Positions 1,087-4,000 of a stretch of DNA of 64,000 nt are shown here, in pieces. The position numbers were made by a program. The DNA is taken from assembly GCA_964106645.2 (NCBI GenBank), contig OZ067040.1, one strand, 5' to 3'. Origin of the DNA: Podarcis pityusensis (lineage: Eukaryota). Numbering within the stretch: position 1 is the stretch's first letter; each line of letters starts with the position of its first letter.

Positions 1087-4000
1087 GCACAATATTTGAT
1101 TTAGTAACTAGCAATGCTCTGTGCTCCTTTGAGGAAGGTCAGGATACAAAAATAGTATAGTTAAAACAACAATAGAAGAAAACAAATTAACTTTATAAAG
1201 AACATCAACTTTATAAACATCTGGGTAGGCTTGTCTAAACAATGATGTTTTTAGCAGTCACCAAAAAGAATACAGTGGTGCCCTGCAAGACGAATGCCTC
1301 GCAAGACGAAAAACTCGCTAGACGAAAGGGTTTTCCGTTTTTTGAGTCGTTCCGCAAGACGAATTTCCCTATGGGCTTGCTTCGCAAGACGAAATGTCTT
1401 GCGAGTTCTTGCGAGTTTGTTTCCTTTTTCTTAAAGCCGCTAAGCCGTTAATAGCCGCTAAGCCGTTAATAGCCGCTAAGCCGCTAATAGCCGCTAGGCC
1501 GTTAATAGCCGCTAAGCCGCTAATAGCCGCTAAGCCGCTAATAGCCGTGCTTCGCAAGACGAAAAAACCGCAAGACGAAGAGACTCGCGGAACGGATTAA
1601 TTTCGTCTTGCGAGGCACCACTGTACAGTGAAGGCGCCTGCTTGATAGCAATAGACAAGGCATTCCAAAGTGTAGGTCCTGCCACACTAAACAGTTATGA
1701 TGCATCATGCATAAAAATAAATCCAGTGTTTCCTATCTGTCTTTTGACGATATAGTTTTAAAAAACAAGGATTTCATCGCATTTTGATAATCTAGCAAGT
1801 GCACACAAGGCTCACTCACCTTTTCTTCAACACAGATGGGACTATTTCGCTGCCTACATCTGATATCCTACGAGATGCTTTCATCATTGTTGGTGGCAAA
1901 GTAATTGAGCTTTGTATTCTTCTTTTGGCTTTAATATAACAAATCACATTACGCATTTGGCCCATTCAGAAAGAAGTCCAATATAAAACTATAGCTTCAA
2001 AAAATCATAATTTCCTTGCGTTGGTGGTATAGTGGTTAGCATAGCTGCCTTCCAAAAAAATCATAATTTCCTATACAATTGATTTTACACTTTAATTACA
2101 AGAATATTTTCCACTTGGAGCCTAAACCAGCTCATCCTAAACCATTGCTGAGCTACAAATATTCACCAAGTACTAATTGTTTTCTGTGGTGTGCAAGTTG
2201 CACTTGTCTCTAAAATTATCTGACCCATCAATGCCTCAATATTCTGTGTTGGAGGAACCAAGTTTCTCCAAATACCTTTGATATTAAGGGCAAAGAGATA
2301 TCAGTGGTCCCACAGACCACATGCTGAAAAGCAAGAATTACAGAAAGACACACAGAACACTTTCTATTATACTTCTTACACATTTATCATATCACTAAAA
2401 ATTAGACTTGTAATGCATTCACTTACGCGGTTGTAATGTATCCTTTTGAATCATTATTTGAAGAAATGAATCAAGAATTCTGCAGATATTCATTACAATC
2501 CCCATCTGATGTATAGGGAATGGTTGCATTTTCTTACGTTCATTCAGAAAGTTCATCCCTTTTTTTACACTTGAGTGAAACAAGCTTGATAAGTACTCAA
2601 TATCATTTTGTGCCAATAGTTCAGAAAAGCCTTCTAACCATGTACTGACATATGGTTCCCATCCCAGATCAACTGGATCCTACAATAAAACAAATGAACA
2701 GATTTTCAGAATTGCTTCTACATTGCTTCTGCATATTTACGTTCTTTATATCTAGATTCTGCTTGTGAAATATGAAACATGCACATACATTTTCCTACTA
2801 TGATACAGATCAGCTATCTGTTCCATGTCTTGGGGAAAATGTGCTATACAGATTTTCTACATGGGAACAGATGTCCATGTAGAAAGTTGCAATGTTTGAA
2901 ACGGCTTCCATAAGGATGATATCTTTGGTTGGCATTGGCAAAGGATGCTAGTTTATAAATGCTTACTCTTTAAGTTTTTCAACTTGTACAAGAAGAAAAT
3001 GCTAACATTTTTGTGCCTTTTCTTTTTCTTCTTTTTCTTTATATCACTTTATTTCTTTATAATTCAAAAGTTTTCAATAAAATATTGAAAAACAGGCAAA
3101 AAAGAGAAAAATACAAGAAAATACTAAATAAACAAAACATAAAATGTTTAATACAGAACATACATTGTTCCAGCAATTTGCTACTCAGGGCCGCGTCAGA
3201 CAAAGTAGTTCCATTAGCCCAATAATTTTTGTCTGCACAATTAAACTTCCTCTCCCTGGGTGCCACCCCCCGTAGATTTAAAAGAAGCATATTATACCCA
3301 ATGGGGATTCCAAGTGGGGAATCTATGATCTTGAGAGAGATCAAGGCAATTATTTAACCAGGGCATTAAAAGAAATAACAGGTCTATTGTGCTATCATCC
3401 CCCTGATCAAAATGCTCAGGGAAATATTGAGATGAAGAATGAAATCAAGGAAGTATCCAAAATACATGTTGTAATAACAGGGGAATTCAACTATCCACCC
3501 ATAGATTGGCTACATATGTGTTATAGTCATGACAAAGAGGTAAAATTTCTCGATACCCTACATGATGATAGCCTAGAATAATTGGTGCACTTCCAGTCTG
3601 CAAATGGTGCCATGAGCAGCGACTACCCCGCCTGTCTCTGCTAATTGCCTTCAGGACAACTTCACTTATTTCACTTTCCATCTTTGCTGAGAATGTTAAA
3701 AGAAAGTATGAAATATCATATGAGTAAAAACGTTATTTAAAAAACCTACCACGTAAACCATAGCACATCTACTAACAGTAGCAGGGCTGGCCTGAGAGAG
3801 GCTGTCCACTTCAAAAATCATTCTGATTGCTGGTGATAAGTAGATTCTTTCACTATTAGGAAGGCATAACACTCTGGAGTCATCTAGCACAGAATTTAAA
3901 TTTTCTATCCAAACTGGGTCTACTGGCCCATCCAAGATAATCCATTGCCAGTCATTAATACTTTCACCTACAAAAGAATAAACAAATAAGAATGTCAGAA

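What the first reader, a model, noticed from the sequence alone, without database searches (positions are those of the whole stretch)
1999..2072. Tailless retrocopy of a 5' tRNA-Gly(TCC) half in a non-mammalian genome
Seen: nt 1-38 of tRNA-Gly-TCC, with no mismatch to the sequence as I recall it, stop right after the anticodon (TCC at 2051-2053 = positions 34-36). The fragment lies between perfect 18-bp direct repeats. There is no added poly(A): the tRNA's own AA merges with the A-run of the target, which is TTC/AAAAAA, close to the L1 endonuclease consensus TT/AAAA. One untemplated T sits at the 5' junction. Known: this is the signature of L1-mediated tailless retropseudogenes, which I recall being described mainly from therian mammals; 5' tRNA-Gly halves are abundant anticodon-cleaved small RNAs, for example in sperm. 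Inference: a recent germline insertion showing that squamate L1 machinery retroposes tRNA halves or primes internally on the anticodon loop.
Basis: partly seen in the sequence, partly recalled or inferred. Interest (0 to 1): 0.75.

Follow-up and report, generated by a model that had tools for sequence, protein, structure and literature searches.

The report
Truncated tRNA-Gly retrocopy in lizard intron
A 37-38 base copy of the first half of a glycine tRNA was pasted by a retrotransposon's copy-and-paste machinery into an intron of a lizard dynein gene; this kind of "tailless" copy is already known from mammals and from the green anole, so it is a tidy but ordinary example.

Summary
A perfect 18-nt direct repeat (1999-2016 and 2055-2072) brackets one T (2017) and the 5' part of a tRNA. 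That part runs from tRNA position 1 through the anticodon TCC (2051-2053) to A37 (2054). A38 cannot be told from the target's A-run. There is no added poly(A): 7 As against 6 in the other repeat copy.

The piece is 37/38 identical to the human tRNA-Gly-UCC printed in PMC4928997; the one difference is at D-loop position 20. It lies antisense in an intron of a DNAH14-like dynein gene. The genome is a lacertid lizard: a LINE in the window is 93-96% identical to Podarcis muralis proteins.

It meets every sequence criterion I could test for a "tailless retropseudogene". The best mechanism is LINE target-primed reverse transcription, with the nicked T-run priming on A37/A38 in the anticodon loop. 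L1 authorship is inferred only: no L1 is in the window, and a Bov-B rival remains.

Noll et al. 2015 found tailless copies in the green anole, and Doucet et al. 2015 found 3'-truncated U6 copies there. Verdict: new member of a known kind, low to moderate interest. I could not test the empty site, a genome-wide census or read support.

The parts
1996..2004 (+). Pre-insertion target motif TTC/AAAAAA. The inferred first nick lies on the opposite strand between 1998 and 1999.
   Evidence: Sequence. It is one substitution from TT/AAAA and fits the WAAAAWW part of the tailless consensus TT/WAAAAWW given in PMC5322556. The -1 base is C, not T.
1999..2016 (.). 5' copy of the 18-nt target site duplication
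   Evidence: 18/18 identical to 2055-2072; 0 of 100 simulated windows hold such a repeat.
2017..2017 (+). Single extra T at the 5' junction. It is in neither the repeat nor the tRNA.
   Evidence: Sequence. 5' extranucleotides accompany 12.4% of full-length Alu insertions in PMC2912911, table 4. A last base of a pre-tRNA leader is an untested alternative.
2018..2054 (+). tRNA-Gly(UCC) positions 1-37: acceptor 5' strand, D-arm, anticodon stem 5' strand and loop up to A37. The anticodon TCC is at 2051-2053.
   Evidence: Rfam tRNA alignment to model 1-37/71. 37/38 identity by eye to human Gly-TCC-2-1 printed in PMC4928997. Unique in the window.
2055..2055 (+). Ambiguous A: either tRNA A38 or the first base of the 3' repeat copy (1-nt microhomology)
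   Evidence: 7 As at 2054-2060 against 6 As at 1999-2004. The printed tRNA has AA at positions 37-38.
2055..2072 (.). 3' copy of the 18-nt target site duplication

Best explanation
This is a tailless retropseudogene: a dead, promoter-incomplete DNA copy of the first 37-38 nt of tRNA-Gly(UCC), inserted by LINE target-primed reverse transcription into unique intronic DNA of a lacertid lizard.

Proposed steps:
1. A LINE endonuclease, most likely of an L1-type element with relaxed template choice, nicked the bottom strand at TTC/AAAAAA.
2. The exposed T-run annealed to A37-A38 in the single-stranded anticodon loop of a tRNA-Gly(UCC).
3. Reverse transcription ran to the tRNA's 5' end.
4. One extra base was added at the 5' junction.
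5. A staggered second nick 18 nt away produced the target site duplication.

Shown: the anatomy, its non-random nature, the tRNA origin, the break inside the loop, the absence of an added tail, and the host.
Inferred: which LINE did it, that the template was a whole tRNA and not a pre-cut half, and germline timing.

The copy has no expected function. It lacks the B box and the whole 3' half, and it lies antisense in an intron.
For: Anatomy and statistics.

tRNA origin and break in the loop: the structure line places 2049-2055 in the anticodon loop. One search gives 37/38 identity to a printed vertebrate tRNA-Gly-UCC. That closeness across amniotes fits a conserved tRNA better than a SINE head.

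No tail: 7 As against 6.

Fit to the published class:
- PMC5322556 reports truncations in loops or single-stranded regions, target complementarity to the terminal 2-18 nt, the consensus TT/WAAAAWW, and internal priming as the favoured route.
- The same paper reports tailless copies in the green anole and predicts a relaxed L1 in lizards.
- An 18-nt TSD lies near the L1 peak of 14-16 bp.

The target DNA is unique in the window and intronic.
Against: - No L1 sequence is in the 64 kb. The two LINE pieces present are one non-L1 family (no match to solved L1 ORF2p; Podarcis 'reverse transcriptase' proteins).
- Squamate genomes are dominated by CR1, Bov-B and L2, not L1 (PMC6050309).
- The -1 base is C, so the site is one off both TT/AAAA and TT/WAAAAWW.
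- The tRNA-target overlap is only 1-2 nt, the bottom of the published 2-18 range.
- The Rfam score alone is not significant (E = 1.4).
- Position 20 differs from every printed tRNA-Gly-UCC 5' end I saw.
- A single locus cannot separate internal priming from a pre-cut template.
- No empty site, reads or second genome were available.
Confidence: 0.6

Rival explanations
1. Same TPRT insertion, but the template was an already cleaved 5' tRNA-Gly half (a tiRNA-like small RNA).
For: 5' fragments of tRNA-Gly-UCC are real, recurrent small RNAs: a 23-mer, a 29-mer and a 32-mer are printed in PMC12577458, PMC12025293 and PMC8001983. The copy starts exactly at tRNA position 1 and ends in the anticodon loop.
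Against: The copy reaches at least A37 (the extra A at 2054). The printed 5' half ends at position 32. A cut at the CpA step, the usual angiogenin preference by my recall, would give a 36-mer with no A to pair with the T-run. Noll et al. searched for truncated-RNA intermediates of 5S rRNA and U2 and found none, concluding internal priming 'by default'. That test was not done for tRNAs, and A-run slippage could have added the extra A later.
Confidence: 0.17
2. A non-L1 LINE made it, most plausibly Bov-B (RTE clade). Its Podarcis copies end in (CAA)n, and its target duplications start with A.
For: PMC13295347 reports for P. muralis: 52,041 Bov-B hits, 96% of them under 15% divergence; a 3' repeat of (CAA)2-6; and TSDs that begin with A. 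The tRNA piece ends in CAA (C36 A37 A38) and this TSD begins with A. Doucet et al. found U6 chimeras with L1-like, L2-like and RTE-like LINEs in Anolis, 3 each, so non-L1 LINEs do copy small RNAs there. L1 is a minor component in squamates.
Against: The Tn-TA signature, to which 265 of 353 P. muralis Bov-B TSDs contributed, needs T at -1 and about three Ts roughly 10 nt upstream. Here -1 is C and positions -7 to -17 hold no TTT. No Bov-B 3' sequence is attached, yet stringent LINEs normally need their own 3' end. Noll et al. found no tailless copies in platypus or chicken, where L1 is not active.
Confidence: 0.12
3. Not a retroposition: an assembly chimera, or filler DNA captured during double-strand-break repair or replication slippage.
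For: No reads or second assembly could be examined. The insert is short (38 nt).
Against: An exact 18-nt duplication that abuts the insert on both sides, starts at an A-run after TT(C), with the insert starting at tRNA position 1 and ending on the A-run, is the TPRT signature. 0 of 100 simulations give such a repeat. Repair filler does not normally create an 18-nt staggered duplication (established knowledge, not tested).
Confidence: 0.04
4. A 3'-truncated copy of a tRNA-Gly-derived SINE, not of the tRNA itself.
For: Noll et al. note that SINE transcripts are also sources of tailless copies. Squamates carry several tRNA-derived SINEs (table in PMC3747384).
Against: The 36-mer has no second copy in 64 kb, even at 3 mismatches. 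The only tRNA-like SINE head in the window (13092-13164, 25.4 bits) is unrelated to it. 37/38 identity to a human tRNA is more than SINE heads usually keep (general knowledge).
Confidence: 0.03

Closest known systems
tRNA-derived tailless retropseudogenes of mammals (Schmitz et al. 2004, not held, known to me only through citing papers; Noll et al. 2015, PMC5322556; Kojima 2010, PMC2912911)
   Same: Full 5' end of a tRNA, 3' truncation in a loop, no A-rich tail, a TSD of L1-like length, an A-rich target whose first bases overlap the RNA's last bases.
   Different: The host is a lacertid lizard. The -1 target base is C. The overlap is only 1-2 nt. The responsible LINE was not identified.
Tailless 5S rRNA/U2 copies and 3'-truncated U6 copies in the green anole (PMC5322556; PMC4476161)
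   Same: A non-mammalian, squamate host and the same class of 3'-truncated small-RNA retrocopy.
   Different: The source RNA here is a tRNA and the host family is Lacertidae, not Dactyloidae. In the text I read, the lizard screens were for 5S rRNA, U2 and U6. Supplements were closed, so tRNA cases there cannot be excluded.
Bov-B / Sauria SINE insertions of squamates with the Tn-TA signature (PMC13295347; PMC6007223)
   Same: A TSD beginning with A, and a template ending in CAA like the (CAA)n tail of Podarcis Bov-B.
   Different: No T at -1, no T-stretch about 10 nt upstream, and no Bov-B 3' end attached.
5' tRNA halves / tRF-5 of tRNA-Gly-UCC
   Same: The same 5' sequence from position 1.
   Different: Those are RNAs of 23-32 nt in the papers I opened. 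This is DNA of 37-38 nt with a TSD, and it ends beyond the anticodon.

Membership tests
Tailless retropseudogene | Derived from a small RNA (tRNA) and complete at the RNA's 5' end | tested here: met
   2018 aligns to tRNA model position 1. 37/38 identical by eye to the printed human tRNA-Gly-UCC from its first base.
Tailless retropseudogene | 3'-truncated | tested here: met
   The match stops at model position 37 of 71. From position 39 on, the window differs from the printed tRNA.
Tailless retropseudogene | No oligo(A)/A-rich tail added | tested here: met
   7 As at the 3' junction against 6 in the 5' repeat copy. The one extra A is the tRNA's own A37.
Tailless retropseudogene | Flanked by target site duplications (Noll's screen: 8-35 nt, at least 70% identity; element at least 30 nt) | tested here: met
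   18 nt, 100% identical. The element is 37-38 nt. The criteria were read.
Tailless retropseudogene | Truncation point in a loop or other single-stranded region | tested here: met
   The last tRNA bases, A37/A38, are the last two bases of the anticodon loop in the Rfam structure line.
Tailless retropseudogene | Target complementary to the RNA's terminal 2-18 nt; consensus TT/WAAAAWW | tested here: inconclusive
   The overlap is 1-2 nt (A37, A38). After the nick, AAAAAAT fits WAAAAWW. Before it the window has TC, not TT.
Tailless retropseudogene | Made by L1 machinery | not testable with these tools
   No L1 is in the window. No eukaryotic genome collection was on hand.
Tailless retropseudogene | A true insertion: an empty site in relatives or other individuals | not testable with these tools
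Not attempted.
Bov-B (RTE-clade) insertion with Tn-TA signature | TSD starts with A, T at -1, about three Ts roughly 10 nt upstream, Bov-B 3' end with (CAA)n | tested here: not met
   Only the first A is met. The -1 base is C, 1982-1992 has no TTT, there is a single CAA that belongs to the tRNA, and no Bov-B sequence is attached.
Functional tRNA gene | Complete cloverleaf detected by tRNA finders | tested here: not met
   ARAGORN finds 0 genes. Rfam finds nothing at gathering. Only the 5' half is present.
tRNA-derived SINE | Repeated family with tRNA-like head, body and LINE-derived tail | tested here: not met
   A single copy in the window at up to 3 mismatches, 38 nt only, with no body or tail. 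Genome-wide copy number was not testable.
Retrocopy of a pre-cleaved 5' tRNA half | 3' end coincides with a known cleavage end of the half | tested here: inconclusive
   The printed Gly-TCC 5' fragments end at positions 23, 29, 30 and 32. This copy ends at 37/38. No lizard small-RNA data were available.

The most novel reading that the evidence does not exclude
The copy was made not by L1 but by the abundant, young Bov-B (RTE-clade) LINE of lacertids. In this reading its primer, selected for (CAA)n tails, annealed to the CAA (C36-A37-A38) of the anticodon loop. That would mean tailless retroposition is not an L1-only trait, against the 'strong dependency on L1' drawn by Noll et al. It would also mean a LINE regarded as stringent can copy a cellular RNA with no LINE 3' end attached.
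Probability: 0.1. Interest if true: 0.55.

Novelty: new member of a known kind. Interest (0 to 1): 0.3.

Why it matters
As a single locus it adds one clean tRNA-derived case, in a second lizard family, to a class already reported from the green anole. This modestly supports the published prediction that some squamate LINE, presumably L1, has a relaxed, mammal-like template choice.

Its practical value is as a seed for a genome-wide census. Truncation positions and target logos of many such copies in a lacertid would show which LINE makes them and whether tRNA halves ever serve as templates. If polymorphic or lineage-specific, it would also be a low-homoplasy presence/absence marker. It has no expected effect on the dynein gene.

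Tried and rejected
- Rfam on the fragment in its full context gave only two chance-level hits (Plastid-psbA-1, snR65). A half tRNA is not scorable unless it ends the stretch, so I repeated the search with the stretch ending at 2055.
- The 32-mer carrying T at position 20 is in 0 papers. The 19-mer shared with the G form is in 22; I opened 6 of the 20 listed.
- Schmitz et al. 2004 (PMC524414) is not held. Its content is cited only through PMC5322556, PMC2912911, PMC3747384 and PMC4476161.
- I looked for L1 in the window. I gave 38 of 85 ORFs of 90 aa or more to Pfam. The five RT/EN ORFs belong to one non-L1 LINE family, and the three I searched have no match among solved structures.
- A scan for A-run plus TSD signatures on both strands found 3 candidates on the + strand and 0 on the - strand. 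One is the finding itself, one is a 12-mer pair around a 1.9-kb polyadenylated insert, and one is a low-complexity G-run pair that I discarded.
- The 1.9-kb insert's ORF stayed unidentified. It gives no firm evidence for L1 activity, because a 12-mer match over 7 kb could be chance and its target is not TT/AAAA-like.
- A search for papers on L1 in lacertids (listing only; 0 papers held the phrase 'LINE L1') gave nothing usable.
- Genome contigs (bacteria and archaea only), the phage, plasmid and E. coli collections, and structure and complex prediction do not bear on this finding and were not used.
- Exons were mapped one by one with tblastn. I built no joined spliced model.
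Full report
WHAT IS THERE

Reading 1801-2280 gives, on the + strand...ATAGCTTC | AAAAAATCATAATTTCCT | T | 36 nt ending in TCC | A | AAAAAATCATAATTTCCT | ATACAATTG...

The repeat finder reports the two 18-mers at 1999-2016 and 2055-2072 as 100% identical, 56 nt apart. The 3' A-run has seven As (2054-2060). The 5' copy has six (1999-2004), preceded by C at 1998. 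So one A is extra and no poly(A) tail was added. The window has no N.

IS IT MORE THAN CHANCE?

- None of 100 first-order Markov simulations of the window contained any perfect direct repeat of 18 nt or more within 100 nt. The generic expectation is 1.8e-4 per window.
- In the real window, one search counted 17 such maximal repeats. All but two (431/522 and this pair) lie inside tandem arrays that TRF lists.
- The 36-mer is unique in the window even with three mismatches; 0 of 100 shuffles matched.
- The surrounding 1640-2500 has no other copy in the window.

IS IT A tRNA PIECE?

ARAGORN finds no tRNA gene in the window. Rfam finds nothing at gathering score and nothing tRNA-like when the fragment sits inside its flanks.

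When the stretch is made to end at 2055, the Rfam tRNA model aligns 2018-2055 to model positions 1-37 of 71, flagged as cut at the 3' end. The D-arm is paired and the anticodon loop reads CUUCCAA. The score is 12.6 bits against a gathering score of 29 (E = 1.4), so this is weak by itself.

Independent naming comes from print. The first 19 nt occur in 22 papers. In the six I opened they are called tRNA-Gly-TCC or its 5' fragments. PMC4928997 prints the whole human Gly-TCC-2-1. By eye the window matches 37 of its first 38 positions, with one difference at position 20 (window 2037 T, printed G). From position 39 on the two differ.

The T form as a 32-mer is in no paper of the library. I recall a vertebrate isodecoder with T there, but that is recall only, and the lizard's own gene could not be consulted.

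'No mismatch' remains unverified. Strictly, only positions 1-37 are tRNA-derived, because A38 coincides with the first A of the repeat.

CONTEXT

Pfam on 38 of the 85 ORFs of 90 aa or more shows dynein heavy-chain domains on the - strand. tblastn of four named dynein proteins gives a collinear series of exon-like matches on the - strand across the window. The nearest are 2452-2700 and 793-1029. Nothing exon-like lies between them (best E = 0.38).

Two of the four proteins are named DNAH14 (bat, seal) and one DNAH6-like (shark). A single-exon search gave the same mixture of names. That search covered only proteins of 147-2000 aa, so full-length dyneins were not seen.

The fragment is therefore intronic and antisense in a DNAH14-like gene. 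I mapped exons one at a time and joined no spliced model.

The host is a lacertid lizard. A LINE ORF at 28004-29062 is 93-96% identical to four Podarcis muralis proteins, and about 60% identical to Varanus and Anolis ones. The window is not human.

WHICH LINEs ARE NEARBY?

The element at 26307-29192 has an endonuclease and a reverse transcriptase in three frames and an (ATT)n tail. The fragment at 17220-18288 belongs to the same family: 80% identity to P0047 over 152 aa. Neither has any match to solved structures, which include human L1 ORF2p by my recall.

So I saw no L1 in these 64 kb. Squamate genomes are reported to be dominated by CR1, Bov-B and L2 (PMC6050309, passages).

WHAT IS KNOWN

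Kojima 2010 (PMC2912911, passages) restates the definition of Schmitz et al. 2004: tRNA retrocopies that are 3'-truncated, lack A-rich tails and are flanked by TSDs. He gives an L1 TSD peak of 14-16 bp and 5' extra nucleotides in 12.4% of full-length Alu insertions.

Noll et al. 2015 (PMC5322556; outline, passages and the whole Results section) report:
- truncations in loops or single-stranded regions;
- target complementarity to the last 2-18 nt of the RNA;
- the consensus TT/WAAAAWW;
- internal priming as the favoured route, because no truncated RNA intermediates were found for 5S rRNA or U2.

Doucet et al. 2015 (PMC4476161, table 2 and section 10) list 25 3'-truncated copies among 41 analysed U6 copies in Anolis. 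They also found U6 chimeras with L1-like, L2-like and RTE-like LINEs, three each.

A search for 'tailless' + 'tRNA' + 'retropseudogenes' + 'lizard' returned six papers. None of the five I opened describes a tRNA-derived case in a lizard. Supplements were closed and might hold some.

MECHANISM

The anatomy meets every sequence criterion of the class that I could test. The exception is the target motif, which is one base off (C at -1) and overlaps the RNA by only 1-2 nt.

The best reading is target-primed reverse transcription:
1. A nick at TTC/AAAAAA.
2. The T-run pairs with A37-A38 of the anticodon loop.
3. cDNA synthesis runs to position 1.
4. One extra T is added at the 5' junction.
5. A second nick 18 nt downstream produces the duplication.

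I put about 0.85 on 'LINE-mediated retrocopy of the tRNA's 5' part', and about 0.6 on the full statement with an L1-type enzyme and internal priming.

The extra A at 2054 shows the template reached at least A37. That is beyond the 32-nt half printed in PMC8001983 and beyond the C36/A37 step. It leans against a pre-cut half but does not exclude one (0.17).

A Bov-B rival deserves mention. In P. muralis this LINE has 52,041 hits, 96% of them under 15% divergence. It has a (CAA)2-6 tail and TSDs that start with A (PMC13295347, passages and tables), and the tRNA piece ends in CAA. But the site lacks both the T at -1 and the T-stretch about 10 nt upstream, to which 265 of 353 Podarcis Bov-B TSDs contributed. 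No Bov-B 3' end is attached either (0.12).

Artefact or repair filler (0.04) and a SINE source (0.03) are unlikely. The only tRNA-like SINE head in the window, 13092-13164 at 25.4 bits, is unrelated to the fragment.

AGE

There are no differences in 18 repeat pairs, and at most one in 38 tRNA positions. By my own arithmetic this bounds per-lineage divergence at roughly 4-8% (95% Poisson bound). At the 0.0013/site/My rate quoted in PMC13295347, that is less than about 30-65 million years. 'Recent' is therefore only loosely supported.

VERDICT

This is a real, well-formed tailless tRNA-Gly(UCC) retropseudogene in a lacertid lizard. It is a new member of a known kind, and its occurrence in a squamate was already anticipated in print. 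Interest is 0.3.

Left open because the tools could not reach them: the empty site in relatives, read support, the species' own tRNA-Gly genes, a genome-wide census, and the identity of the LINE.

Noticed in passing
window 7855-9779: A 1.9-kb insert (7867-9767, + strand) ends in AATAAA plus nine As and is flanked by a 12-nt direct repeat (7855-7866 / 9768-9779). Its 5' end is GC-rich. It carries an ORF at 8762-9433 with only a weak coiled-coil (HSBP1-like) match. That ORF has no near-length homologue and only 10 representative relatives at E <= 1e-3, none with a Pfam family. It could be a polyadenylated retrocopy, but the 12-mer may be chance and the target is not TT/AAAA-like.
   Followed up: partly
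window 26307-29192 and 17220-18288: A degenerate non-L1 LINE (endonuclease plus reverse transcriptase split over three frames, (ATT)n tail) and a second fragment of the same family. They are 93-96% identical to Podarcis muralis proteins, which identifies the host as a lacertid.
   Followed up: partly
window 561-614, 61305-61343, 14588-14629: The same 16-nt unit (TGTAACCTGAAGCGTA) forms short tandem arrays at three places, one of them on the opposite strand. This is probably the tail of one repeat family.
   Followed up: no
window 13092-13164 (-): A tRNA-like sequence just below Rfam's threshold (25.4 bits against 29), followed by repeat-like sequence. It is probably a tRNA-derived SINE head and is unrelated to the Gly fragment.
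   Followed up: partly
window 7243-7380 and 24290-24371: Long hairpins that hit several miRNA models on both strands, well below gathering scores. They look like inverted-repeat (MITE-like) elements and not miRNA genes.
   Followed up: no
window 49547-50051: A GC-rich tandem array (118-nt unit, 3.7 copies, with nested 51-69-nt periods) and open frames on both strands, in an otherwise AT-rich window.
   Followed up: no
window 431-448 and 522-539: The only other non-tandem perfect 18-nt direct repeat within 100 nt in the window (spacing 91). It lies next to the 16-nt array at 561-614.
   Followed up: no
window 1431-1547: An 18-nt unit repeated 6.6 times (TTAATAGCCGCTAAGCCG) in the same intron, about 450 nt from the finding.
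   Followed up: no
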